Source of the DNA: a virus
Direction: 5' to 3' (one strand)
DNA length: 14,557 nucleotides
UHGV virus genome: UHGV-1341758
Under the pieces are notes generated by a model. It did not search any database. It was not told the origin of the DNA and saw nothing but the letters and a program-made list of their open reading frames with translations. Shown one piece after another: positions 1,786 to 14,557 of this stretch (positions within the stretch are counted from its first letter, which is position 1; the number at the start of each line of letters is the position of its first letter). The translations under genes and the position numbers were made by a program.

Positions 1786-1988
1786 AACCTCACTCCCAGC
1801 GGACGACGGCGACGGCGGGTTGTCCCCAGTACCGACTCCGCATCATTGATCGCCCGGTTAAGCTCATCCAGAGAAGCTGCCGTATATTCAATTCTGCGAC
1901 CATCTTTCTGGACAGACACCACCCGTTTACCGGTTAATAAATCAAGGCGCGCCTGACGCAGCGCCTGCAGTTCAGCGACTGTAACCAT
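1782..1988 (-). CDS. W: Head-tail joining / DNA stabilisation protein W (gpW-like)
   Basis: 68-aa ORF between terminase A and portal B, same length as lambda W, with similar core (LTGKRVVSVQKDGRRIEYTA vs lambda [20 protein letters not shown]). Confidence 0.85.
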   Translation of the reverse strand: MVTVAELQALRQARLDLLTGKRVVSVQKDGRRIEYTAASLDELNRAINDAESVLGTTRRRRRPLGVRL

Positions 1989-3900
1989 TCACTCCTCCGG
2001 ACAGCTTCGCTGCCAGTTCTTTAAGGGTTGGCCGGGTCGTCTCTTCTTCCCGGGATTTTGCCAGTACAGCCAGATCAAGCTGCCAGCGTTGCACGGACAC
2101 ACGTAATGCCGCGTAGGCATACACCAGGCAGTCCAGCGCTTCGTTACGCCGCTTTTTGTTATCCCACAGCAGACGCATCTTTCCTTTTTCCCACTTCTCC
2201 ACAAGCTCTTCCGCCACCAGTTGCTGCGCCTCTGTCTGCGAAAAAATCTCCGGATCATCAGGAAAACGGATGGCATACGACGTGGCTTCATCCGCAGGCG
2301 TGGGATCGGCTTTCATACGGGCATAGAGAATTTCTTTTGCGGTGTCCGTCCCCACTTCGCACAGATACACGCCCCGCTGATTGCGGGTTTTTGGCATGGT
2401 GATCACCGGCTTGCCATAAACAGATGCACCTTTTACCGGCAGCACCCGGAAAACACCGTGTTTTTTTGACCTCTGATAGACAATTTCGCCATCGATCCCC
2501 CCGGTGTCCCAGCAGACACGGGAAATGGTCATTTCGGTTCCGTCTGCATGGCGGTATTTTTTGTTGATCGCCACATCCACACGTAACAGCGTCTCTTCCT
2601 CATCGGGACGCCCCATAATGATGATTTTATCCACCAGAAAGGCTTCCTCTCCCGGAGCCCATCCCCAGACATACATCTCAAAACGGTTTCGCTGCGAGTC
2701 AATGCCCGCCGTCAGATAAACCACCCGGGAAGGCACCGCAGCCGTGTAACGCACAACCTTATCCATCAGCACCTGGTGATCGAGTTTTTCGCCCACGGCC
2801 TCTTCCCAGGTCTCGCCCAGCGTGGTGTTCACAAAGGTTTTCAGGCCGTTGGGATCTTTCAGTGCATCCAGCCAGTCATAGACAATCTGTACCCAGGTGG
2901 TGAACGGACTGTACGCCGTCCAGATATGGAATGTGATGGAGCGCGGCGGCGGAATTTCATTATCCGCGGCGCTGAAAAATGTCAGACCGTCACGAGTCCA
3001 CATGCCCGTGTTTTCACAGATCCACCGCCCGTTACTCTGGTCAAGCTCAGACTGATGGATCACACAGCCATGATGCTCACAAAGGTAGAAAACACTTTCT
3101 GGCTTATTCTTCTCCCACTTAAGACCGAAAGGCGAGGCATCATCGCCAAATTTCAGATACTGCTCCTCCCCACAGTGCGGACAGGGCACATAAAAACGCA
3201 TGAAATGTGCCGACTCGTTAGCGGCTTTTTCGATCTGGCAGGAGCCTTTGATTTTAGGCGTCGAGCCGCGAATGGATTTTGGCCATACAGAGCCCTCAAT
3301 ACGTTTATCCCCCAGCAGGGTTGGCGAACCCTCTTTTTCAACATCCGGTTCGAACGAGGAAAGCTCGTCATAACAAACCACATCCACGGATTTTTCACGG
3401 TAGTTTTTTGCTGCCGCTCCCCCCAGACACCAGAAACCCACACCGGAGGAAAAACGCTTCAGGGTGAGCGTATTATCGCGGTGTTTTCTTCCGAACCATG
3501 GAGCCAGCTCCAGCAATGCAGGAACATCCCTTATCGTTGGCTCAACATGAGATTTCATAAAATCTTCAGCAGCTGAGTCCGTGGGCTGAAAAAGAAGGCT
3601 GTTGCGTGATTTATGCTCAATAAAATAAGCCTCCACTCCCAGCAACATCTTTGTATAACCAACACGGGCAGATTTAATCAGGTTAACAGTGCGAATCAAA
3701 TCGTTGCCCATACAGTTCATGATGCCAACCTGAAACGGCAGTGTTTCCCACCGCCCCGGGGTATAAGACGACTCTTTAGGAAGGTAATAATGTTTATTGG
3801 CCCACTGAACTGTCGTCAGTGGAACAGGAATAATGAGAGATAAAAGCCCTGTAGCTATCGCACCGGCTGCATTAGCTGCCTTCTGTGCGTCTGAAATCAT
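1972..3900 (-). CDS. A: Terminase large subunit (lambda gpA-like)
   Basis: Strong full-length similarity to lambda A ([23 protein letters not shown](S/T)[34 protein letters not shown]). The ORF track begins at 3942, but ATG at 3900-3898 gives the same 37-residue spacing before YYLPKE as lambda and a 29-nt overlap with the Nu1 stop. Start could be 3942. Confidence 0.92.
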
Positions 3901-4420
3901 CGATCCACCCGCCCACGTTTTCACCGGCCTTAGCTGCAACATTGGAGGCTTTCGCGATTTCAGTTTTCACCACATCAAGGTGTGATGGTGAAATGTCCGG
4001 ATATTTACGCTGTAATGTCAACGGCACACGCACAAGTATCCCCGAAATCTCCTGTGCCACACGTTGCAGAATGAAGGTAAACAGTTCAGTTTCCAGCACC
4101 ACTCCGTCTTCACGGGCATTTTTCAGTTCCTGCGCATCTGCCTGCGCTTTTGTGAGCCGGTAGCGTTCATAGTCAATGGTGCCGGGTTGTAAATCTGACT
4201 CCGCTGCCGCACGCAAATCGGCCAGTTCTTTGCGGAGCTTTTCGTTTTCGATATCAGTTTCCCTCTGCGCATACCACTGAATTGCCATGGCAGTATCAAA
4301 TACAGATTCAATGCCCTTACTGCCTTTGGAGACGCAAGGGAGCCCCTGAGACTGCCAGCGTTCAATCGTCCGCGGGTCCACGTTAAAAATTTCGGCAAGC
4401 CTCTTTTTATTAACCTTCAT
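3872..4420 (-). CDS. nu1: Terminase small subunit (lambda gpNu1-like), N-terminal winged-HTH cosB-binding domain
   Basis: From ATG at 4420-4418 the protein reads [28 protein letters not shown]..., which aligns with lambda Nu1 (MEVNKKQLADIFGASIRTIQNWQEQGMP...); C-terminal DLQPGTI(D/E)YERYRLT(K/R)[12 protein letters not shown] is conserved. The ORF-track extension to 4660 reads through the AT-rich cos region (MIIIIIL...) and is not real. Confidence 0.9.
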
Positions 4421-4660
4421 AGAACAACCCATTATCAAATACAAGGCCCGACATGAAAACGCCAGAAAAAGGCATTTTCGGACACTTTCATGTCGGACAT
4501 TTATGAATGCAATATTAAAAAAAAACAAAAAGTTATATTCGAGAAGTACCGACACGATTTTCCCTGAAAAATTTTCATAAATAGTGAAAAACCGCGAGGT
4601 CGCCGCCCCGTAACCTGTCGGATCGCCGGAAAGGACCCGCAAAATGATAATAATTATCAT
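4421..4660 (-). other. cos packaging site: cosB (R-like sites plus AT-rich IHF-like spacer), cosN, and a putative cosQ side
   Basis: Minus-strand sequence upstream of Nu1 reads GGGCGGCGACCTCGCGGTTTTTCACTATTTATGAAAATTTT, almost identical to the lambda left end/cosN as recalled. Between cosN and Nu1 are repeated TGTCGG/TGTCCGA motifs (about 4446-4457, 4472-4502, 4541-4557) flanking an AT-rich block (about 4501-4540), the R3-I1-R2-R1 layout of lambda cosB. Confidence 0.8.
4597..4608 (-). other. cosN 12-nt cohesive-end sequence (GGGCGGCGACCT on the minus strand)
   Basis: Exact match to the lambda 12-nt cohesive end (recalled), in the expected position and orientation relative to Nu1. Confidence 0.8.
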
Positions 4661-4807: not shown

Positions 4808-5041
4808 ATGTCAACGAAGAACAGAACCCGCAGAACAACAACCCGCAACATCCGCTTTCCTAACCAAATGATTGAACAAATTAACATCGCTCTTGATCAA
4901 AAAGGGTCCGGGAATTTCTCAGCCTGGGTCATTGAAGCCTGCCGCCGGAGACTGTGCTCAGAAAAAAGAGTTTCTCCTGAAGCAAACAAAGAAAAGAGTG
5001 ACATTACTGAATTGCTCAGAAAACAGATCAGACCAGATTGA
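4808..5041 (+). CDS. Small basic protein with ribbon-helix-helix-like N-terminus (possibly DUF3950/YlcI-like); accessory gene on the strand opposite the late operon
   Basis: 77-aa ORF with RNIRFPNQMIEQINIAL, a beta-strand-then-helix pattern typical of RHH DNA-binding proteins. It sits between cos and the lysis genes, opposite in orientation to the late operon. Family assignment is from memory only. Confidence 0.55.
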   Translation: MSTKNRTRRTTTRNIRFPNQMIEQINIALDQKGSGNFSAWVIEACRRRLCSEKRVSPEANKEKSDITELLRKQIRPD

Positions 5042-5097
5042 AGCAATTTAGATAATCGTGCAGACTACGCCCCTCATATCACATGGAAGGTACTACA

Positions 5098-5508
5098 ATG
5101 GCTCAGGTTGCCATTTTTAAACAAATATTCGATAAAGTGCGAAATAATTTAAACTATCACTGGTTTTATTCTGAACTAAAACGTCACAATGTCTCACATT
5201 ACATTTACTATTTAGCTACAGAGAATATTCATCTTGTTCTTGAAAACGATAATACGGTTTTAATAAAAGGACAGGGTAAGGTTGTAAATGTAAGATTTTC
5301 AAAAAATAAATGCCTTATAGAAGCCACCTTAAAAGGATTCAAATCAGGAGAGTTATCATTTTACGAATACAGGAAAAATCTTGCTACAGCAGGGGTTTTC
5401 AGATGGATTACAAATATCCACGAAAACAAAAGGTATTACTATACCTTTGATAATTCATTACTCTTTACTGAGAACATTCAGAACACTACACAAATATTTC
5501 CGCACTAA
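5098..5508 (+). CDS. AT-rich moron protein, possibly DUF1398 (YbcV/YdfO-like); function unknown
   Basis: Coding region is visibly AT-rich (roughly 30-35% GC by eye) against about 50% in the flanks. GGAAGG sits 7 nt upstream of ATG at 5098, favouring this start (136 aa) over the ORF-track start at 5083. Opposite strand to the late genes. Family assignment is from memory. Confidence 0.6.
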
Positions 5509-5764
5509 ATCATAACGTCCGGTTTCTTCCGTGCCAGAACCGGACTCGCTGGCATGATGAAATATGTGTACCCGGTAACCCCGGTGTGCATCGTTTTTGA
5601 TTATTCCCGCACACTCGCGCAGAAGGAGTTCCCCGTCGGGCTACGGTCTCTGTTAATACGGGAATACGGCGACGATACAGCGCATGATGTGTCAGGCTTG
5701 AATACCTTTATCCTTTAAAAGGGATATCAGTTAAGTTATCCCGTGTAGGGTATAAACCATTATC

Positions 5765-5999: not shown

Positions 6000-6467
6000 T
6001 CATCGAAGGCATTGCGTCCTGATGTATTCCTGAAGCGTTCTCAGTGCTGTTTGGTCGCGGATAATTCCGTCCCGGATACCGAGAACGTTTCGTCCAGCAA
6101 CTGGAGAGAGTTCGACGGTGGCATCATTGCCCATGCCGGAGGCGCTGGAGGTTTCAGCTGAGGATGGCACAGGGCATTTTCCTTTGACGAGCACCCGACC
6201 ACCATTATCAAGCTTGCGCCGAAGAGCATCATTTTCAGCTTTCGCATCAGCTAACTCCTTCGTGTATTTTGCATCGAGCGCAGCAACATCACGCTGACGC
6301 ATCTGCATGTCAGTAATTGCCGCGTTCGCCAGCTTCAGTTCTCTGGCATTTTTGTCGCGCTGGGCTTTGTAGGTAATGGCGTTATCGCGGTAATGATTAA
6401 CAGCCCATGACAAGCAAACGATGATGCAGATAACCAGAGCGGAAATAATCGCGGTTACTCTGCTCAT
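6000..6467 (-). CDS. Rz: Spanin inner-membrane subunit Rz (i-spanin)
   Basis: First ~83 residues look identical to recalled lambda Rz ([83 protein letters not shown]); the C-terminal half diverges. ATGA overlap with R. Confidence 0.9.
6041..6247 (-). CDS. Rz1: Spanin outer-membrane lipoprotein subunit Rz1 (o-spanin), embedded in Rz in another frame
   Basis: ORF wholly inside Rz in a different frame, with lipobox-like LIMVVGC and a proline-rich segment KPPAPPAW (lambda Rz1 has VVGC and KPPPPPAW). The true start may be an internal Met. Confidence 0.8.
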
Positions 6468-6940
6468 ACCTCAATCTCTCTGACCGTTCCGCCTGCTTCT
6501 TTGAATTTTGCAATCAGGCTGTCAGCCTTATGCTCGAACTGACCGTAACCAGCGCCCGGCAACGAAGCCCAGATATTGCTGCAACGGTCGATAGCCTGAC
6601 GAATATCACCACGATCAATCATCGGTAAAGCGCCACGTTCTTTAATCTGCTGCAATGCCACAGCGTCCTGGCTTTTGGGGGAGAAGTCTTTCAAACCAAG
6701 CTGTTTACGGTAAGCATCCCACCAACGGGAAAGAAGCTGGTAGCGTCCGGCGGCTGTTGATTTGAGTTTGGGGTTTAGCGTGACAAGTTTGCGAGGGTGA
6801 TCGGAGTAATCAGTGAATAGCTCTCCGCCAACAATGACGTCATAACCATGATTTCTGGTTTTCTGCCGTCCGTTATCAGTTCCCTCTGACCACGCCAGCA
6901 TATCGAGGAACGCCTTACGTTGATTATTGATTTCCACCAT
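6464..6940 (-). CDS. R: Endolysin R (lambda-type lytic transglycosylase)
   Basis: 158-aa ORF matching recalled lambda R throughout ([51 protein letters not shown]...). Confidence 0.95.
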
Positions 6941-7247
6941 CTTCTACTCCAGCTTTTTTAGCAGCGAAGCGTTTGATAAGCGAACCAATCGAGTCAGTAC
7001 CGATGTAGCCGATGAACACGCTCGTTATATAAGCGAGATTGCTACTTAGTCCGGCGAAGTCGAGAAGGTCACGAATGAACCAGGCGATAATGGCGCACAT
7101 CGTTGCGTCGATTACTGTTTTTGTAAACGCACCGCCATTATATCTGCCGCGAAGGTACGCCATTGCAAACGCAAGGATTGCCCCGATGCCTTGTTCCTTT
7201 GCCGCAAGAATGGCGGCTAACAGGTCATGTTTTTCTGGCATCTTCAT
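6924..7247 (-). CDS. S: Holin S (class I holin with dual-start S107 antiholin / S105 holin)
   Basis: 107-aa ORF matching recalled lambda S; begins Met-Lys-Met ([10 protein letters not shown]...), the dual-start motif. Confidence 0.95.
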
Positions 7248-7609: not shown

Positions 7610-8233
7610 CTAACGTGTGACCGCATTCAAAATGTTGTCTGCGATTGACTCTTCTTTGTGGCATTGCACCACCAGAGCGTCATACAGCGGCTTAACAGTG
7701 CGTGACCAGGTGGGTTGAGTAAGGTTTGGGATTAGCATCGTTACAGCGCGATATGCGGCGCTTGCTGGCATTCTTGAATAGCCGACACCTTTGCATCTTC
7801 CGCACTCTTTCTCAACAACTCTCCCCCACTGCTCCGTTTTGGCTATATCAACCGCACGGCCTGTACCGTGGCAATCTCTGCATCTTGCCCCCGGCGTCGC
7901 GGCACTACGGCAATAATCTGCATAAGCGAATGTTGCGAGCACTTGCAGTACCTTTGCCTTAGTATTTCCTTCAAGCTTTGCCACACCACGGTATTTCCCC
8001 GATACCTTGTGTGCAAATTGCATCAGATAGTTGATAGCCTTTTGTTTGTCGTTCTGGCTGAGTTCATGCTTACCGCAGAATGCAGCCATTCCGAATCCGG
8101 CTTGTGATTGCGCCATCCCCATAGCAGCCATCACATCAGTACCGGAAAGAGAGTCAGAAGCCGTAGCCCGTGGTGAGTCGCTCATCATCGGGCTTTTTGG
8201 CGAATGAAATTTAGCTACGCTTTCGAGTCTCAT
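7610..8233 (-). CDS. Q: Late-gene antiterminator Q (lambda Q type)
   Basis: 207-aa ORF matching recalled lambda Q ([31 protein letters not shown]...; zinc-finger cysteines CRDCHGTG...CGRCKG). ATGA overlap with the upstream phosphatase gene. Confidence 0.95.
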
Positions 8234-8895
8234 GCGCCTTCTCCCTGTACCTGAATCAATGTGAGGTTTCCGCAGAACACTGCGCCGGTATCGATATACA
8301 TCTGGTTGGCAAATTTGAGTGGTTTCACTGCTGGCGTATGACCAAAGATGAACGTGTCCGCGCCTTTGATTTCTTTCACGATCCCGTCTTGTGAGTTGCC
8401 GATTCGTTCGCGGTTCCAGATTACCTGCTGATGATCAACTGGCTTTCCAAACTCGTATTCATCACAAGGATAATCGGCGTGGCAAATGACATATTTTTTA
8501 CCTTTGCTCACCAGTTCGATGATTAACGGAAGTTCATCTGCTTTATGGGCAAGAGCTTTAGCCAGAATTTCTTTGTCGTAATCGAGATTAAAGAACCAGC
8601 CACCGCCATTAAGCAGCCAGTGATTAACGTTTCCACGCTCTGATAAGCCATCAATCATCATTTGCTCATGGTTTCCACGTACAGCTCTGAACCAGGGGAA
8701 TGTGATTAATTCCAGGCATTCAACGTTCTCTGCACCACGATCAACCAAATCGCCCACCGAGATAAGCAGGTCTTTTTTGTTGTCGAATCCAATCGTATCC
8801 AGTTTGTTCATCAGGTTCGTGTAGCATTCGTGCAGATCGCCAACTACCCAAATATTTCGGTATTTGCTGCCATCAATTTTTTCGTAATAGCGCAT
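8230..8895 (-). CDS. ninI: Ser/Thr protein phosphatase (lambda PPase, NinI/orf221), PPP-family metallophosphatase
   Basis: From ATG at 8895 the protein is 221 aa ([22 protein letters not shown]...), matching recalled lambda phosphatase, with GDxVDRG and GNHE motifs present. The ORF-track start at 8970 is an upstream extension. Residue 23 is E where G is expected in GDLHG. Confidence 0.93.
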
Positions 8896-9079
8896 CTCTT
8901 TCACTCCATCCGCGATGAACCATGAGAACGTCGTTGACGATGGCGTGCATTTTCCCGTCTTTATCATCAACGTATTTTCTGACCGTACCGCGACTACATT
9001 TCAGTCTGCGTGCTACTTCTGTCTGGTTTCCGTATGCTTCAACGAGCATGTCTGGAATGGTTTTTACTGAGAACGTCAT
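8873..9079 (-). CDS. ninH: NinH (small Fis-like HTH protein)
   Basis: 68-aa ORF matching recalled lambda NinH ([37 protein letters not shown]...). ATGA overlap with NinG. Confidence 0.85.
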
Positions 9080-9696
9080 GCGGCCTCACTTCTGCTATTT
9101 CGCAGGTCTTTGAGTTTCTGCTGATACTCCGCCTTGATGGCCCTGCACTCTTCGACAGTCCAGCGATGGCGGTTATGGTTTGATTCGATTTCGTCTACTG
9201 CTTCCTGCCCGATGCGATTAATCAGTTCGACGCGATACGGAACGAGATTTCCGCTTTTGTGCTGGTTGCACACCACGCATTGCTTGTGAATATTGCGTTC
9301 ATCAAATCGGAGTTGAGGTGCCGCAGCAGTTGTCCGGTAATGTCCGGCATCCCACTGAGCAGACGTGAGCGTTCCGCACGAGATACATGGTAAGTCGCGG
9401 TCTCTTTCTCTGATGAAGGCGTTTACGGCTTGTTGGGCTTGTTGGGCTTGTTTAATCCAGTAACTGCGGGGCTTTAAGGCGAGTTTTCGAATCTTAAGTT
9501 TATCTTTCTGTTTCTGCTCCTCTCGTCGTCGTTTCTTCTCTGCTGCTTTTTCCGCTTTTTCGCGTTCTTTGCTTCGTCGTTCGAGTGCTATCTTGGTTCC
9601 ACACTCTGGAGAGCACCACCACTGATTAGCGAATGCAGGGTGAAACCATTCCCGGCATTCATCGTTTTTACATCGTCTTCGCGCTGGTTTAGCCAT
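9076..9696 (-). CDS. ninG: NinG / Rap recombination endonuclease (Holliday-junction-resolving)
   Basis: 206-aa ORF matching recalled lambda NinG ([33 protein letters not shown]...). Confidence 0.9.
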
Positions 9697-9865
9697 CGTC
9701 TTCTTCCTCGTACATTGAGCTATTCGGATCGCTCATCAGTTCTGCGCAGCAGTGCTCACACACGTGAACTTCCAGCACATGCAGCTTCTGACCGCAGTTA
9801 GCGCACGTTAAAGCCCGCTCGACGCTTTCTTTCTGGTATTGAAGGGATTGGGATGGGCTAAGCAT
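9689..9865 (-). CDS. ninF: NinF (small zinc-ribbon protein); absent from the ORF track because it is under the length cutoff
   Basis: Manual minus-strand translation gives a 58-aa protein, [58 protein letters not shown], close to recalled lambda NinF. CxxC...CxxCC cysteine pattern. TAATG overlap with the upstream gene and an 8-nt overlap with NinG. Confidence 0.75.
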
Positions 9866-10230
9866 TATTGGATTCTCTGCATCATGAGAAAGACAATCAT
9901 GGCGGCGCGGAGGGGATTTTCATGTATAGCTCGCTTAGATTTACAGTAGTCCACACCGCGTGCACCCCACTCGTCTTCATCGAGATTGATAATGCTAATC
10001 CTGTATTTTTCAATAATCGGCCATGCGTCTGCTGGGTTTGCGCATGGGTTAAAGGATCCGCGCTCAACTTCTACTTCAACTGCGTCTCCGTTTACAATGT
10101 CTCCCTCAAATGAGACAAACACCATATCGCCATTCTCACCTTCTTTGTAATCCGGTGATCCGTTATGAATGGCTTCGAATACCGCCACGTTAATTTCAAA
10201 ATCACTTAACTGTGAATAATCCATTGTCAT
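9865..10230 (-). CDS. Acidic hypothetical protein between NinE and NinF (position matches P22 NinX)
   Basis: ORF 9865-10266 in the track. ATG at 10230-10228 forms an ATGA overlap with the NinE stop, so [15 protein letters not shown]... (121 aa) is the likely product. No recognisable motif; the NinX label is by gene order only. Confidence 0.5.
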
Positions 10231-10403
10231 TTCCTCGCACGATATCTTAGCCACCGGATATCCCACAGGTGAGCTGTGTAATTGAAGGTTTTTACGTCAG
10301 ATTCTTTTGGGATTGGCTTGCGTTTATTTCTGGAGCGTTTCGTTGGAAGGTATTTGCAGTTTTCGCAGATGATGTCGGTGAAACTTCGTCGCTGTCGCCT
10401 CAT
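10227..10403 (-). CDS. ninE: NinE
   Basis: From the internal Met at 10403 the 58-aa product [58 protein letters not shown] matches recalled lambda NinE. ATGA overlap with the methyltransferase stop. Confidence 0.8.
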
Positions 10404-10927
10404 GCCGCCCTCCTGACGCCCTGCCCGATCGCCATCAATGCCGCTTTGGATACGGTAGTAAACATCCGTCGAGGACTGATGAACGGTCGCCAAATCAGCA
10501 GCATGGAGCCTTTGCTGTTTCCCTTCTTCTCCAGCCCTGTCGATGGTTCGATAAAATTAATCCGTCCATCAGTGATAATGCGAACTTCGTCGACACTCTC
10601 CAGAGCCTTGCTGAACCATCCGACTGACATATCCTCTGGCACAAGCATAACTACCGTCTGTCGCTGTTGTATGCACTGCTCAGCGGCTTTTTCCACCCAC
10701 GGCCTGATATTGCTGTACGGTGGGTTATTCCAGATTGCACCGTGGCTTACCCACTCAGAATTGAGCGCGTCGTCGGCCTCAGTTAGCCAGTGAGCACACA
10801 GAGCATTTTTGTCGCTCGCTGCCGAATCCAGCCAGAATCCAAACTCAATATCCAGTGCATCAAAAAGCCAAAGCGGCGTTTGCCAGCAGTCCTTGTCGTG
10901 TGCTGGCGTATTTGATTTGATAGTCAT
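10400..10927 (-). CDS. Phage orphan N6-adenine DNA methyltransferase (Dam-like)
   Basis: Contains WNNPPYS (motif IV, (D/N)PP(Y/F), of N6-adenine methyltransferases) and an N-terminal [13 protein letters not shown]...FWLDSAAS segment typical of small phage adenine MTases. ATG at 10927 gives ATGA coupling to NinB (175 aa); the track start at 10987 is an alternative. Confidence 0.85.
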
Positions 10928-11367
10928 GCAGCCCGATATCCCCATCGCGCTTTCCATTCGAGAGCCAGTCGCGCTTCGTCTGACCACTTAACGCCACGTT
11001 CTGTACCGAATGCCTGTATAAGCTCTAATAGCTCCGCAAATTCGCCTACCCGCATCCTGCTGGTTGACTGGCCTATTACCACAAAGCCATTCCCGGCAAG
11101 GTTAGGAACAACGTCCTGCTGCTTTAAGGCTGCGGTAAACACACACTTCCAGCTTTCTGCATCCAGCCAGCGACCATGCCATTCAACCTGACGCGAGACG
11201 TCACCTAAGCAGGCCCATAGCTTTCTGTTTTGGTCTAAGCTGCGGTTGCGTTCCTGAATGGTTACTACGATTGGCTTGGTTGGGTCTGGAAGGATTTGCT
11301 GGATAGCTTGAATGGCGTTCTGCTGATGAATGGGGCTTCTTAGTTCAAACGTTAGTTTCCTCACCAT
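10924..11367 (-). CDS. ninB: NinB (Orf-family recombination mediator)
   Basis: 147-aa ORF matching recalled lambda NinB (..KLTFE(L/I)RSP.HQQNAI.A.QQILPDPTKPIVVTIQERNRSLDQNRKLWACLGDVSRQVEWHGRWLDAESWKC...). Confidence 0.9.
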   Translation of the reverse strand: MVRKLTFELRSPIHQQNAIQAIQQILPDPTKPIVVTIQERNRSLDQNRKLWACLGDVSRQVEWHGRWLDAESWKCVFTAALKQQDVVPNLAGNGFVVIGQSTSRMRVGEFAELLELIQAFGTERGVKWSDEARLALEWKARWGYRAA

Positions 11368-11509
11368 TTACGCTCCTGTAATCGTCAAGTGCAGCTGCAA
11401 TAGTCCCTATCGGGTCATGGTCTTGCCCGATAATCTCATTTACGTTTTCATCTTCTTCCACACCGAAAAAGAATCGCAGGGCTAACATGATTTCTTCGTA
11501 TGCGCTCAT
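11345..11509 (-). CDS. Small acidic hypothetical protein (54 aa), not in the ORF track
   Basis: Manual translation from ATG at 11509: MSAYEEIMLALRFFFGVEEDENVNEIIGQDHDPIGTIAAALDDYRSVNGEETNV. AAGGAG sits about 8 nt upstream; the gene fills the gap between the 110-aa ORF and NinB and overlaps the NinB start by about 23 nt. Confidence 0.4.
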   Translation of the reverse strand: MSAYEEIMLALRFFFGVEEDENVNEIIGQDHDPIGTIAAALDDYRSVNGEETNV

Positions 11510-11511
11510 AC

Positions 11512-11844
11512 TCACTCCTTCACTTTGACTCCAGCAGCGCGGATGTTTTCCTCATAAGCATCCATTGCATCGCCGAAGCCATTGGAATAATCAACAGTAA
11601 ACCCTTTGGTTAATGCTTCTCTGCTGTCGATAAACTTTGGCGCGGTTATTTCAATAGCTGCTCGCGATGCCTGCCACGTTTGCCAGTGGCCTTGAACATC
11701 GTCCATCACGTATTGACCACCAATATTACCGCTGCCAATTTCATGGTGATTTTCAGGGTAACGGATAAGGTCTGAGGATTCGCCTCCACGTCGCAACCAA
11801 CTTTCTTCAAACTGCTTTCTTGATTCGTCCATATTCCTCTCCAT
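11512..11844 (-). CDS. Hypothetical protein (110 aa)
   Basis: ORF in the track (11512-11850, GTG). ATG at 11844-11842 overlaps the stop of the upstream 66-aa gene (TGATG), suggesting the coupled start. No recognisable motifs. Confidence 0.6.
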   Translation of the reverse strand: MERNMDESRKQFEESWLRRGGESSDLIRYPENHHEIGSGNIGGQYVMDDVQGHWQTWQASRAAIEITAPKFIDSREALTKGFTVDYSNGFGDAMDAYEENIRAAGVKVKE

Positions 11845-12044
11845 CACCACTCATTTTTAAGTAAGCGCCACACAGCCTTTCCGCGCGGGAATATCCTGTC
11901 GATATTCTTCTGCATGTTATTTGCCATCACCTTTCGATAGTCATTGCGATAGGGCTTGTTGCGAATAACTTTTGCCATCTTGTAATGACGTCTTAATCGT
12001 TCTTTTGTCCACCCGTCGTAAAGAACAACAATCGTTGTCATCAT
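11844..12044 (-). CDS. Small basic hypothetical protein (66 aa)
   Basis: ORF with GGAGAG Shine-Dalgarno-like sequence just upstream of its ATG; very K/R-rich. Compactly placed between two other small genes. Confidence 0.55.
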   Translation of the reverse strand: MMTTIVVLYDGWTKERLRRHYKMAKVIRNKPYRNDYRKVMANNMQKNIDRIFPRGKAVWRLLKNEW

Positions 12045-12069
12045 TTCTCTCCATTAGTGTGCTGGGGTG

Positions 12070-12258
12070 TTAGGCCTGTACGATTTCACATTTTCTTATG
12101 CGGAGACCGTTCTCATCATCTTGTAAATCAATAGCTCTCTGAGCATCCTCTTTAGTGCGGAATACCGCCTTAACTTCACCGTATTTTTCATGCGCTACTG
12201 AAACAAGCCCATCTTCATCGTCGATGATTGCGTAAAACATATATTCGCTGTTACTCAT
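12070..12258 (-). CDS. Small hypothetical protein (62 aa)
   Basis: ORF preceded by GAGGTGA and located 27 nt downstream of the terminator that follows the helicase gene; no recognisable motifs. Confidence 0.55.
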   Translation of the reverse strand: MSNSEYMFYAIIDDEDGLVSVAHEKYGEVKAVFRTKEDAQRAIDLQDDENGLRIRKCEIVQA

Positions 12259-12284
12259 GCTCTCACCTCACTCTGTTTCTGATG

Positions 12285-12317
12285 CAAATAAAAAGGCCTG
12301 CGATTACCAGCAGGCCT
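12285..12317 (-). terminator. Strong intrinsic terminator downstream of the helicase gene (tR2-equivalent position)
   Basis: Minus strand: AGGCCTGC-TGGTAATC-GCAGGCCT, a perfect 8-bp GC-rich stem with 8-nt loop, followed by TTTTTATTT. Confidence 0.65.
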
Positions 12318-12345
12318 GTTACAAGCTCAGTGATGTAGATGGTCA

Positions 12346-13608
12346 TCAGAATCCTCCTTTCTTCTTGGACTGCGGTTCCTCGCGTTCACGGCGGCGCATT
12401 TCAGCAGACTGTTGGTCTGTGTCATAAATAGCGCCATTTGCCTGAATGCAATACACCGTGCCGGTATTGCCATGACGATTGAGGCGAAGGATTAGTTCGG
12501 TTTCACCAGGAGGAACGCTGTCATCAAAAGCACCTTCCCGATGGATCCCAACCCAATAATCGCAATCCTGTTCAATCTGCCCTGTATCTCGTGAGTCACT
12601 TGGTAATGGGCGTTTATTGGTTCGGCTTTCCAGTGCGCGGTTAAGCTGCGTCAGAAGCACAACAACGCAATCAAGCTCTTTGGCAAGGTTCTTCAGTCCT
12701 TTGGTGATCATGCCGTAAGCAAGGTCGTTACGATCGGCCTTCTCAGCGGTCATTAGTGTCAGGTAATCGACCAGAATCATCCCAACACATCCTTTTTCTC
12801 GCTTGATTCGACGGCTTTCGCTGACGATTTGAGCCAGAGATAATCCCGGCGTGTCGTCGATGTAAAGCAGGTCGATTTCACTCAAGCGATTGGCTGTTTC
12901 GATCGCCCTGTTGAAGTCACCATCGTAATCACCCTGATAGCCGTCATCGGCGTCATTTGTCGCCGGAAGGTAAAAAATATTCGGGTTAACACCAGACTTC
13001 TGCCCTACCAGTTTTTCCAGTATCTGGTCACCGGGCATTTCAAGGCTGAACATCAGAGCGGGCTTTTTCTCATGCACTGCGCAGTTGATTGCCATCTGGC
13101 TGTATAGCGTCGTTTTCCCCATCTTAGGGCGAGCGCCAATGACAAACAGAGAGCCTTTCACCAGACCTTTCGGTGACAGCATCCTGTCCAGAGATGGGAT
13201 CCCTGTGCTCATTCCTCGTTGTTCGCCTGACGGGTCAAATCGCTTCTCAAGGTCGCTAACCCAGTCTTCCATGACCTCACCAAATGAGCGAAGGCCGCGA
13301 CGCGATCCGGTTTTTGCATGGTCTGTCAGTTGCGTGAAAATCGCCTGAATAGCTTCGTACTTCTGCGTTGCAGTCATTCCGTTGCGGGAATAGAGCAATT
13401 CCGTCGCTTCAGTCATGCGGTTGATGGCGTAGCGTTCCATTGCGGTTTCACGAACCTGCATTGCATAGGCAACGATGTTTGCTGCGCTTGGCGTGTTCTT
13501 TGCGATCTCAGCGATATAAGCAAAACCGCCAACAGACGCCGTTAACGATTTGCGCTCCAGTTCATCGAAAAGCGTCAGCCCATCTACTGGCTTTTGCTCC
13601 CGGTGCAT
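12346..13608 (-). CDS. DnaB-family replicative helicase, C-terminal ~420 residues (gene appears frameshifted; see 13614-13778)
   Basis: Walker A GARPKMGKT, Walker B-like ILVDYLTLM, and DnaB-like SVGGFAYIAEIAKNTPSAANI and LTQLNRALESR..RP..SD(L/S)R(E/D)(S/T)G.IEQD.D motifs, compared with recalled E. coli DnaB. Confidence 0.9.
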   Translation of the reverse strand: MHREQKPVDGLTLFDELERKSLTASVGGFAYIAEIAKNTPSAANIVAYAMQVRETAMERYAINRMTEATELLYSRNGMTATQKYEAIQAIFTQLTDHAKTGSRRGLRSFGEVMEDWVSDLEKRFDPSGEQRGMSTGIPSLDRMLSPKGLVKGSLFVIGARPKMGKTTLYSQMAINCAVHEKKPALMFSLEMPGDQILEKLVGQKSGVNPNIFYLPATNDADDGYQGDYDGDFNRAIETANRLSEIDLLYIDDTPGLSLAQIVSESRRIKREKGCVGMILVDYLTLMTAEKADRNDLAYGMITKGLKNLAKELDCVVVLLTQLNRALESRTNKRPLPSDSRDTGQIEQDCDYWVGIHREGAFDDSVPPGETELILRLNRHGNTGTVYCIQANGAIYDTDQQSAEMRRREREEPQSKKKGGF

Positions 13609-13613
13609 TCTGG

Positions 13614-13778
13614 TTATTTCTTCGAAAAGGATTGTGGTCGGCTGTAAAATGAATCAGGCTTCAGCATCGCCAGAACTTTCCGGACGCGCTCACTGCTGTC
13701 ATCATCCAGAAGCAATCCACCAATAACCGCCTGCTCTGCCTCGATGCTATGGGGCGGCGCATAAAAATTATCGGTCAT
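13614..13778 (-). CDS. DnaB-family helicase N-terminal fragment (54 codons), in a different frame from the main helicase ORF
   Basis: Manual translation from ATG at 13778: MTDNFYAPPHSIEAEQAVIGGLLLDDDSSERVRKVLAMLKPDSFYSRPQSFSKK*. PPHSIEAEQ.V.GGL.LD and DDFYTRP match the recalled DnaB N-terminus. Start overlaps the O-like gene stop. Confidence 0.7.
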   Translation of the reverse strand: MTDNFYAPPHSIEAEQAVIGGLLLDDDSSERVRKVLAMLKPDSFYSRPQSFSKK

Positions 13779-14529
13779 CGTGTTCACCCTCACGAACTTT
13801 CAGGTAGGTATTGTCGTTAAGCAGGAAATCAAATCCCTTTTTGTGCCAGACGGTTCCGCGTTGATGGTTTGGGCGTTCTTCGAACATCCATCGGCAATTT
13901 TCGCCTACGTAGCTCAAATAATTTCTCCAGTCCTGCATCGTGAACCCATGCCCGTCAAGCTGGCGGGTTATCACTCCGGCTTTGCGCCAGAACGTTCGGA
14001 TCTGGTTTTTACGCTTGTCATTCAGTGCGCGGATTCTTGGCGCTTCAGGAAGGATTTCGTGGTAAGCATCGACAACATCCTGACAGCTAACGGAAGGTTT
14101 TTTCTTGTCAGACTTTTTGTCTGCTGCGGTACTCTCTAATACGTCAGTATTAGAGATAATATTATTATATTCTTTATCTGTGGTAATTTGCTGGTAATCT
14201 GCTGGTACAGTATTGCTTGCAGGCATTGGTATTGCTGGCTTTGAGGTGGTAATTTGCTGGTAATCTGCTGGTACAAAATTTGACTGATAATCGTCATATT
14301 TCTCTACCGAGAAAACTGAGAATTTACCGTGTGAAACCCAGTCAATCATGCCGAGTTTTTTGAACTTTCTAAGCAGGTACTGAACGCGATCTGGTTTGAG
14401 TCCTGTTTCAAACGCCAGAGAGTTTCTACCGCCAAGTAGCTTCCCTCTGCCTACCAGAATTTCTCCTGCGTCAGTCATTACATACTCAGGCGTATGCTTT
14501 GCTTGAATCGCCACGGGTTTAACAGACAC
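13768..14529 (-). CDS. Replication initiator (lambda O-like / iteron-binding origin protein)
   Basis: 253-aa ORF immediately upstream of the helicase, overlapping its start. Contains in-frame DNA direct repeats (iterons) encoding VPADYQQITT twice, followed by an AT-rich stretch, as in lambda ori inside O. The start codon in the ORF track is GTG at 14529; the first ATG is at 14478. Confidence 0.65.
   Translation of the reverse strand: MSVKPVAIQAKHTPEYVMTDAGEILVGRGKLLGGRNSLAFETGLKPDRVQYLLRKFKKLGMIDWVSHGKFSVFSVEKYDDYQSNFVPADYQQITTSKPAIPMPASNTVPADYQQITTDKEYNNIISNTDVLESTAADKKSDKKKPSVSCQDVVDAYHEILPEAPRIRALNDKRKNQIRTFWRKAGVITRQLDGHGFTMQDWRNYLSYVGENCRWMFEERPNHQRGTVWHKKGFDFLLNDNTYLKVREGEHDDR
14180..14275 (-). 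repeat. Putative phage replication origin iterons inside the O-like gene
   Basis: Perfect 30-bp direct repeat GTGGTAATTTGCTGGTAATCTGCTGGTACA at 14180-14209 and 14246-14275, each made of tandem ~11-bp TGGTAAT(T/C)TGC units, with related GGTATTGCTGGC between. AT-rich block (about 14140-14179) lies on the downstream side. Confidence 0.65.
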
Positions 14530-14557
14530 CTCAGAGTCATTTAAGATGGCTTAAAGA

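What the first reader, a model, noticed from the sequence alone, without database searches (positions are those of the whole stretch)
12346..13778. DnaB-like replicative helicase split into two ORFs by a frameshift near 13625-13640
A 54-codon ORF (13614-13778) encodes a clear DnaB N-terminus (PPHSIEAEQAVIGGLLLD...DSFYSRP) and stops at TAA. The continuation of the DnaB alignment (TILFEEITRMHREQKPVDGLTLFDELE, then SVGGFAYIAEI) is in the frame offset by -1, inside and just upstream of the 420-aa ORF. One missing nucleotide around the RP codons (plus-strand about 13630-13636) would restore a single helicase of about 475 aa. Possible explanations are prophage decay (replication-defective cryptic prophage), a sequencing or assembly indel, or, less likely, programmed frameshifting; I see no canonical X_XXY_YYZ slippery heptamer.
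Basis: partly seen in the sequence, partly recalled or inferred. Interest (0 to 1): 0.6.

Follow-up and report, generated by a model that had tools for sequence, protein, structure and literature searches.

The report
Prophage helicase gene broken by 4-base deletion
A lambda-like prophage from a gut Escherichia-type host has lost four bases from its own DNA-unwinding (DnaB-type) helicase gene. This splits the gene in two and most likely stops the phage copying its DNA, which is an ordinary, recent gene-killing mutation rather than a new mechanism.

Summary
On the minus strand a 54-aa ORF (13778..13614) carries the start of a DnaB N-terminal domain. A 420-aa ORF (13608..12346) in the -1 frame carries the rest of the helicase.

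The lesion is a 4-nt deletion (ACAA or CAAA, junction at 13635|13634), not one missing base. Putting the four bases back gives a 1437-nt, 478-aa gene. That gene is 100% identical in DNA to the intact helicase of E. coli ET245, and it passes the curated phage_DnaB model over its full length.

None of 408 copies in complete E. coli genomes or 87 phage records has the deletion. The same junction does occur in contigs from at least four other sequencing datasets built with different assembly pipelines, so an assembly error is unlikely.

I found no slippery heptamer, no stimulatory RNA structure and no Shine-Dalgarno sequence before ORF2. Every other gene in the window that matches a curated family (nin region, Q, holin, Rz, terminase, portal) is full length.

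Verdict: a young loss-of-function frameshift in an otherwise intact lambdoid prophage, probably making it replication-defective. Interest is low.

The parts
12346..13778 (-). Whole frameshifted helicase gene, the lambdoid 'P' gene of the DnaB type. It is 1433 nt here and 1437 nt (478 aa) in intact homologues.
   Evidence: After re-inserting ACAA the gene is 100% nt-identical to the E. coli ET245 gene for WP_016058954.1. TIGR03600 phage_DnaB scores 583 bits against a cutoff of 498.65, covering profile 1-420/421.
13614..13778 (-). ORF1: a 54-aa N-terminal fragment. The first 48 residues are native helicase sequence, followed by 6 out-of-frame residues (QSFSKK) and the stop TAA at 13616-13614.
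   Evidence: PF00772 profile positions 2-38, E=5e-9. The region before its ATG pairs with the anti-SD at -6.2 kcal/mol. Its start overlaps the end of O by 11 nt, as in HK620.
13634..13635 (.). Deletion junction. Four bases (ACAA, or equivalently CAAA) are missing between these two positions relative to all intact alleles. This removes His49/Lys50 codon sequence and shifts the frame by -1.
   Evidence: Alignment A1. An 81-nt junction probe found 0 of 408 E. coli places and 0 of 87 phage records with the deletion; best identity was 95.3%, i.e. 81/85.
12346..13608 (-). ORF2: 420 aa starting at the internal Met59 of the native protein. [quoted passage not shown]
   Evidence: (PF00772 50-103, PF03796 1-244/255), and the alignment to E. 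coli DnaB 6bbm. There is no SD (-1.0 kcal/mol). The ATG lies 5 nt after the ORF1 stop.
13768..14557 (-). 3' part of replication initiator gene O. It is cut by the end of the contig and is the upstream partner of the helicase in the replication module.
   Evidence: phrog_345 'replication initiation O-like' matches profile positions 64-292/297. It is identical to E. coli ET245 O over the shared stretch.
12294..12317 (-). Intrinsic-terminator-like hairpin followed by a T run, just downstream of the helicase stop. It corresponds to the feature annotated as tR2 in HK620.
   Evidence: 8-bp stem with 6 GC pairs, then TTTTATTT. HK620 annotates terminator tR2 at the homologous place.

Best explanation
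The window holds the replication, nin, lysis and packaging part of a lambdoid prophage whose replicative helicase belongs to the phage DnaB family (the 'P' gene of the HK620/Sf6 type). A recent spontaneous 4-nt deletion in codons 49-50, inside the globular head of the N-terminal domain, shifted the frame. Translation from the normal start now ends after 54 residues. The remaining 420 codons have no ribosome-binding site of their own. They can at most be read by inefficient termination-reinitiation at an ATG 5 nt past the stop, giving a helicase that lacks the first 58 residues. The inferred consequence is that the prophage no longer makes a functional replicative helicase. It would then fail to replicate after induction unless a co-resident related prophage supplies the helicase or recombination repairs the gene. 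The lesion itself is shown; the replication defect is inferred.
For: The 4-nt gap against intact HK620 and mEpX2 genes is shown. The intact gene is 1437 nt and a single CDS in all listed rows of the 110 phage records and 633 E. coli records matched. The repaired gene is 100% identical to the E. coli ET245 gene. The O-P block shows 0 mismatches and one 4-nt gap in 2224 nt, and ET665 shows 9 mismatches plus the same single gap in 4320 nt, so the lesion is young and derived. The same junction occurs in contigs from four other datasets built by three pipelines (ENA/MEGAHIT, JGI, Logan), so it is a real allele. The deletion is absent from 408 E. coli and 87 phage copies and from GTDB representatives, IMG/VR and JGI metagenome contigs. 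The N-terminal domain profile is cut into 2-38 and 50-103, and the lesion maps to the conserved RPH motif around residue 65 of E. coli DnaB. There is no SD before ORF2 (-1.0 kcal/mol against -6.2 for ORF1), no X_XXY_YYZ heptamer and no long homopolymer. The RNA downstream is less structured than shuffles (z=+1.75). The E. coli DnaB fragment lacking the N-terminal domain keeps ATPase but not helicase activity, as summarised in PMC4523182. That P22 gene 12 is a phage-encoded DnaB analogue essential for P22 replication is my own recollection, not something tested here.
Against: No reads were inspected, so I cannot show directly that the deletion is fixed in the population sampled. The four extra datasets may all contain one widespread strain, which argues against an artefact but says nothing about function. 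Some N-terminally truncated DnaB-family helicases keep helicase activity in vitro (mycobacteriophage Wildcat gp80 core, PMC4523182). The stop-5 nt-ATG arrangement allows some reinitiation, so a leaky phenotype is not excluded. Persistence of the allele across several samples is also compatible with residual function.
Confidence: 0.85

Rival explanations
1. The split gene is leaky. Ribosomes ending ORF1 at TAA reinitiate at the ATG 5 nt downstream and make a 420-aa helicase lacking 58 N-terminal residues, possibly complemented by the 54-aa peptide. This retains enough activity for the prophage to replicate.
For: The stop and the start are 5 nt apart. ORF2 keeps the complete ATPase domain and still scores above the phage_DnaB cutoff (517.9 against 498.65). 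An N-terminally truncated phage DnaB homologue was active in vitro (PMC4523182). The allele is seen in several datasets.
Against: There is no SD before the ATG (-1.0 kcal/mol, weaker than the average internal ATG of the gene). The cut falls in the middle of a folded domain rather than at a domain boundary, so misfolding is likely. The E. coli DnaB fragment without the N-terminal domain lacks helicase activity. None of about 495 other copies starts there. The allele is so young (0 substitutions) that its persistence says nothing about selection.
Confidence: 0.09
2. The deletion is a sequencing or assembly artefact and the real gene is intact.
For: The lesion is a single small indel in a sequence otherwise identical to an intact allele, and reads could not be examined.
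Against: The identical junction was recovered from four other runs or samples by different pipelines (MEGAHIT k127 at ENA, JGI, Logan). The context CCACACAAAATCC is not a long homopolymer, and a 4-nt loss is not a typical short-read error (my own knowledge).
Confidence: 0.04
3. Programmed -1 ribosomal frameshifting or transcriptional slippage fuses the two ORFs into a full-length helicase.
For: ORF2 is in the -1 frame, and a 40-nt overlap window (13653-13614) is open in both frames.
Against: There is no X_XXY_YYZ heptamer and no homopolymer of 6 or more in the overlap. No downstream structure was found (z=+1.75). The two-ORF state is a derived singleton among hundreds of single-ORF homologues, which is the opposite of the conservation expected for recoding.
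Confidence: 0.02

Closest known systems
DnaB-type replication protein 'P' of lambdoid phages HK620 (NP_112058), Sf6 gp44, mEpX2, HK75 and HK633, and the prophage allele WP_016058954.1 of E. coli ET245/ET665
   Same: It is the same gene in the same place: after O with an 11-nt overlap, and before the nin region and tR2. DNA identity is 97-100%, and it is identical to the ET245 allele apart from the deletion.
   Different: Those genes are single 1437-nt, 478-aa CDSs. Here four bases are missing in codons 49-50, giving 54-aa and 420-aa ORFs.
E. coli replicative helicase DnaB (PDB 6bbm and others)
   Same: It aligns over residues 25-451 at E=3.7e-83. [quoted passage not shown]
   Different: It is a phage paralogue family (TIGR03600) and scores below the cellular DnaB equivalog cutoff (329 against 385 bits). 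It has a shorter N-terminus, and in this window it is broken.
Frameshift and nonsense pseudogenes in prophages on the way to becoming cryptic
   Same: A single inactivating indel has hit an essential phage gene in an integrated element.
   Different: No other decay is visible in 14.5 kb, and there are no substitutions relative to an intact allele. This is the very first step rather than an eroded cryptic prophage. The named E. coli K-12 examples of eroded elements (DLP12, Rac, Qin) come from my own knowledge and were not compared here.
Programmed -1 frameshift genes (dnaX, lambda G/GT, IS3 transposases)
   Same: Two overlapping ORFs are offset by -1.
   Different: There is no slippery site, no stimulator and no conservation of the arrangement.

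Membership tests
Phage replicative helicase, DnaB family (NCBIfam TIGR03600; Pfam PF00772 + PF03796) | Score above the curated cutoff over the full-length profile | tested here: met
   The repaired 478-aa sequence scores 583.3 bits against a cutoff of 498.65, covering profile 1-420/421. ORF2 alone scores 517.9 bits over profile 46-420.
Phage replicative helicase, DnaB family (NCBIfam TIGR03600; Pfam PF00772 + PF03796) | N-terminal domain and RecA-type C-terminal domain encoded in one uninterrupted reading frame | tested here: not met
   In the window PF00772 is split into profile 2-38 (ORF1) and 50-103 (ORF2), in different frames. The locus is therefore a disrupted member (pseudogene) of the family.
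Phage replicative helicase, DnaB family (NCBIfam TIGR03600; Pfam PF00772 + PF03796) | Catalytic motifs present (Walker A GxxxxGKT, Walker B DYL, and the arginine-finger region SRDTGQIEQD) | tested here: met
   The alignment to E. coli DnaB 6bbm pairs ARPKMGKTT with ARPSMGKTT, ILVDYL with IMIDYL, and SDSRDTGQIEQDCD with SDLRESGSIEQDAD.
Phage replicative helicase, DnaB family (NCBIfam TIGR03600; Pfam PF00772 + PF03796) | Helicase activity and a requirement for it in phage replication | not testable with these tools
   This needs biochemistry or an induction experiment.
Programmed -1 ribosomal frameshift gene | Slippery heptamer X_XXY_YYZ in the overlap of the two frames | tested here: not met
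   All heptamers in the ORF1 frame from 13659 to 13620 were listed and none is slippery.
Programmed -1 ribosomal frameshift gene | Stimulatory downstream hairpin or pseudoknot, or an upstream SD-like element | tested here: not met
   The MFE is -18.4 kcal/mol against a shuffle mean of -24.2, z=+1.75. No SD-like element was found.
Programmed -1 ribosomal frameshift gene | The two-frame arrangement is conserved among homologues | tested here: not met
   None of 408 E. coli places or 87 phage records has it. Of the 15 members listed from the 4324-member 90% cluster, all complete ones other than the window's own 420-aa product are 474-483 aa.
Genuine frameshift pseudogene, as opposed to an assembly artefact | The same lesion is recovered independently from separate datasets | tested here: met
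   The junction CGACCAC|AATCC is present in ERZ917302/SRR413685, JGI 3300056502, SRR10692250 and SRR18189225.
Genuine frameshift pseudogene, as opposed to an assembly artefact | Read-level support at the junction | not testable with these tools
   No read data are available here.

The most novel reading that the evidence does not exclude
The two-piece gene is not dead. Termination-reinitiation would yield an N-terminally truncated helicase, possibly reassembling with the 54-aa peptide. Such a product could still support replication, or could poison or exclude related superinfecting lambdoid phages that use the same O-helicase pair. Either would explain why the allele is seen in several gut metagenomes.
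Probability: 0.06. Interest if true: 0.4.

Novelty: already known. Interest (0 to 1): 0.1.

Why it matters
It matters little beyond annotation. The locus should be labelled as a frameshifted pseudogene of a phage DnaB-family helicase, and the prophage should be flagged as probably replication-defective despite looking complete. It is a clean example of the first step of prophage inactivation, a single lesion with no other decay. The 4-nt junction also gives a specific marker for tracking this prophage clone in gut metagenomes. If the truncated product proved functional, it would bear on how much of the DnaB N-terminal domain is dispensable, but nothing here points that way.

Tried and rejected
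1. I scanned for the 25-nt junction in GTDB representative genomes, IMG/VR and JGI metagenome contigs and found 0 hits in each. The allele turned up only through exact protein look-up.

2. Several contigs carry the exact 420-aa product starting within 0-2 nt of the contig end (L010, L012-L015). I considered these as extra evidence and rejected them. They differ from the window by 17-32 SNPs and do not cover the junction. They are contigs that happen to start there and were picked out by the exact-match look-up.

3. L009 (GCA_001292545.1) and L011 also give a 420-aa call, but they do not have this deletion. L009 has a garbled stretch near its contig end. L011 is intact at this site and disrupted elsewhere.

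4. L006 carries the deletion plus 5 SNPs, 4 of which are common polymorphisms of other alleles. It is either a true recombinant or a chimeric metagenome contig, and I could not decide which.

5. I first took the helicase 'split by a 1-kb insertion' in five E. coli genomes for an IS insertion. It is an in-frame intein and is unrelated to this lesion.

6. Searching the paper library for the run accessions gave only the project-level identity of PRJNA422434, which the papers found use as a human gut metagenome dataset. The independence of the other samples could not be documented.

7. tRNA and Rfam scans of the window found nothing.

8. Structure prediction and large homology searches were not run, because the answer did not depend on them.

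Full report
**1. What is there**

Two ORFs lie on the minus strand. The first runs from ATG at 13778 to TAA at 13616-13614. It encodes 54 aa: MTDNFYAPPHSIEAEQAVIGGLLLDDDSSERVRKVLAMLKPDSFYSRPQSFSKK. Five bases further on, an ATG at 13608 opens a 420-aa ORF that ends at 12346.

The second ORF is in the -1 frame relative to the first, and that frame is open from 13653. Pfam places positions 2-38 of the 103-position DnaB N-terminal domain model in ORF1 (E=5e-9). It places positions 50-103, plus the whole DnaB_C/RecA-type domain (E=2e-60), in ORF2.

**2. The lesion**

Megablast against phage genomes finds 110 records at 95-99% identity or better. These include HK620, Sf6, HK75, HK633 and mEpX2. In every listed row that covers the query as one continuous piece, the 1551-nt query spans 1555 nt of the record. 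The homologous gene there is one 1437-nt, 478-aa CDS, annotated as 'DnaB-like replicative helicase' or 'replication protein P'.

A three-way alignment shows one gap. Intact genes read CCACACAAAATCC and the window reads CCACAATCC. Four bases are missing, ACAA or equivalently CAAA. The junction falls between window 13635 and 13634. It is one codon plus one base, in codons His49-Lys50 (SFYSRP|HK|ILFEE).

Re-inserting ACAA gives a 478-aa protein. It passes the curated NCBIfam model TIGR03600 'phage replicative helicase, DnaB family' at 583 bits (cutoff 498.65) over the whole profile. It aligns with E. coli DnaB (PDB 6bbm) at E=3.7e-83. The lesion falls in the conserved F-Y-x-R-P-H motif of the N-terminal globular head, around DnaB residue 65.

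**3. How old and how common**

- The repaired gene is 100% identical at the nucleotide level to the helicase gene of E. coli ET245.
- The whole O-P block (window 12285-14504) shows 0 mismatches and the single 4-nt gap in 2224 nt.
- E. coli ET665 matches 4320 nt (window 10189-14504) with 9 mismatches and the same single gap.
- An 81-nt probe across the junction finds 408 places in 376 complete E. coli genomes and 87 phage records. None reaches 99% identity, and the best is 95.3%, which is 81/85, i.e. the gap.
- The 25-nt junction is absent from the GTDB representative genomes, IMG/VR and the JGI metagenome contig set.

The deletion is therefore derived, rare and very young.

**4. Real or artefact**

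Both the 54-aa and the 420-aa products exist as exact sequences in the large protein collection. The longest contig carrying them is 14557 nt, the same length as this window, so the window is probably that whole contig.

The 54-aa product is called on 8 contigs. The four places shown are:
- ENA ERZ917302 (run SRR413685, project PRJNA422434, human gut metagenome, a MEGAHIT k127 contig)
- JGI 3300056502
- Logan SRR10692250
- Logan SRR18189225

All of them contain the same junction. The first three are 100% identical to the window over 2.2-5.2 kb, so they are the same prophage clone. The SRR18189225 contig has 5 SNPs, of which 4 are polymorphisms common in other alleles. It is either a recombinant or a chimeric contig.

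Recovery from separate runs by three assembly pipelines makes an assembly or sequencing artefact unlikely. I could not look at reads, and I could not document that the samples come from different hosts.

**5. Recoding or separate expression**

The overlap open in both frames is 13653-13614. No X_XXY_YYZ heptamer occurs in the ORF1 frame there, and the only homopolymer of 6 or more in the gene lies far away, at 12977. The 121 nt around and downstream of the site fold worse than shuffled sequence (z=+1.75).

The 20 nt before the ORF2 ATG pair with the anti-Shine-Dalgarno sequence at only -1.0 kcal/mol. The ORF1 start gives -6.2, most other genes in the window give -6 to -9.5, and the mean over all 34 ATG triplets in the gene is -2.5. 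No promoter-like site on the coding strand precedes ORF2.

The only plausible route to an ORF2 product is termination-reinitiation, since the stop and the ATG are 5 nt apart. That product would lack the first 58 residues and would carry half of a folded domain.

Published work summarised in PMC4523182 reports that the E. coli DnaB fragment without the N-terminal domain keeps ATPase but loses helicase activity. A thioredoxin-tagged RecA core of a mycobacteriophage DnaB homologue retained helicase activity in vitro. Residual function is therefore unlikely but not excluded.

**6. Surroundings**

The window is a typical mosaic lambdoid prophage segment, all on the minus strand except three small genes. 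The genes, in order, are:

| Gene or family | Coordinates | Note |
|---|---|---|
| O | 13768-14557 | cut by the contig end |
| Broken helicase | 12346-13778 | this finding |
| tR2-like terminator | 12317-12294 | |
| Small nin-region ORFs | between the terminator and NinB | |
| NinB | 10924-11367 | |
| Dam methylase | 10400-10987 | |
| NinX, NinF | 9865-10266 and 9689-9865 | |
| NinG | 9076-9696 | |
| NinH | 8873-9079 | |
| NinI-type phosphatase | 8230-8970 | |
| Q antiterminator | 7610-8233 | |
| Holin S | 6924-7247 | |
| Presumed endolysin | 6464-6940 | no Pfam hit |
| Rz | 6000-6467 | |
| Nu1 | 3872-4660 | |
| Terminase gpA | 1972-3942 | |
| gpW | 1782-1988 | |
| Lambda-type portal | 193-1785 | |

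Every one of these with a family model matches it essentially end to end. No tRNA or Rfam family was found. No record in the phage or complete E. coli collections covers more than 57% of the window, which is usual for mosaic lambdoid elements.

Among genomes that carry the identical 62-aa neighbour gene, 7 of the 10 places shown have the 478-aa helicase. There is thus no sign of wider decay, and the helicase lesion is the only defect visible in 14.5 kb.

**7. Mechanism and consequence**

Shown: a 4-nt deletion truncates the normal translation product after 48 native residues.

Inferred: the prophage lacks a working replicative helicase. This replication module consists of an O-type initiator with a phage-encoded DnaB-type helicase. 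From my own knowledge, not tested here, the same module type is found in P22, where gene 12 is essential for replication. On that basis the element should fail to amplify its DNA after induction, although its regulatory, lysis and packaging genes look intact.

Rescue is conceivable in two ways. A related co-resident prophage could complement the helicase in trans. Alternatively, recombination with one of the many near-identical intact alleles could repair the gene.

**8. Comparison and novelty**

This is a disrupted member of a well-known family: phage DnaB helicases, HK620 P/Sf6 gp44 type. The disruption is a well-known kind of event, a frameshift pseudogene in a prophage. It is not a programmed frameshift, since all three defining features tested were not met. 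Nothing here would surprise a specialist. Its only modest value is as a clean snapshot of the first inactivating hit in an otherwise intact prophage, and as a clone marker.

**9. Verdict**

Best explanation: a real, recent loss-of-function deletion (confidence 0.85). Rivals are leaky reinitiation with partial function (0.09), artefact (0.04) and programmed recoding (0.02). Interest is 0.1.

Noticed in passing
L027 (E. coli WCHEC115106, NZ_CP043334.1) 358-2838; also hits H61-H64: In five complete E. coli genomes the same helicase gene carries a 1029-nt in-frame insertion inside Walker A (GARPKMGK|AQPLNS...YILTHN|TTLYS), giving one continuous 826-aa ORF. The insert matches Hint and LAGLIDADG homing-endonuclease models, so it looks like an intein (Ala at position 1, HN at the end, +1 Thr). 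RefSeq annotates it as two pseudogene fragments, which is probably a mis-annotation.
   Followed up: partly
L006 (Logan SRR18189225 contig) against window 13058-13955: This contig has the same 4-nt deletion but 5 SNPs. Four of them (window 13231, 13216, 13192, 13084) are bases common in other helicase alleles. It is either a recombinant carrying the deletion or a chimeric metagenome contig.
   Followed up: partly
L009 (GCA_001292545.1, CYGL01001796.1) positions about 20-45: At almost the same site this draft assembly reads CCACAACAAATCATTTCGAAG instead of CCACACAAAATCCTTTTCGAAG. That is several changes and a net 1-nt loss within 35 nt of the contig end. It looks like poor sequence at a contig end rather than a second independent frameshift.
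   Followed up: no
window 4808-5718, + strand: Three small genes lie on the opposite strand between Rz and Nu1: 77 aa with DUF3950, 141 aa with DUF1398 (PHROGs labels this family 'head protein'), and a 54-aa ORF with no match. This looks like a moron-type insert near the cos/packaging boundary.
   Followed up: partly
window 1 and 14557 (contig ends); L003 and L004 ends: The window is the same length as the longest contig carrying these products and is probably that whole contig. This contig and the sister contigs from other datasets all end inside the O gene, within about 72 nt of each other. That fits assembly breaks at sequence shared with other lambdoid prophages in the same samples, which could supply an intact helicase in trans.
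   Followed up: no
window 3872-4660, minus strand: The longest ORF for the small terminase Nu1 is 262 aa, but the Nu1 models match only from residue 80 or 81 onward. The true start is probably an internal Met. The first 80 codons may be read-through of the upstream non-coding/cos region.
   Followed up: no
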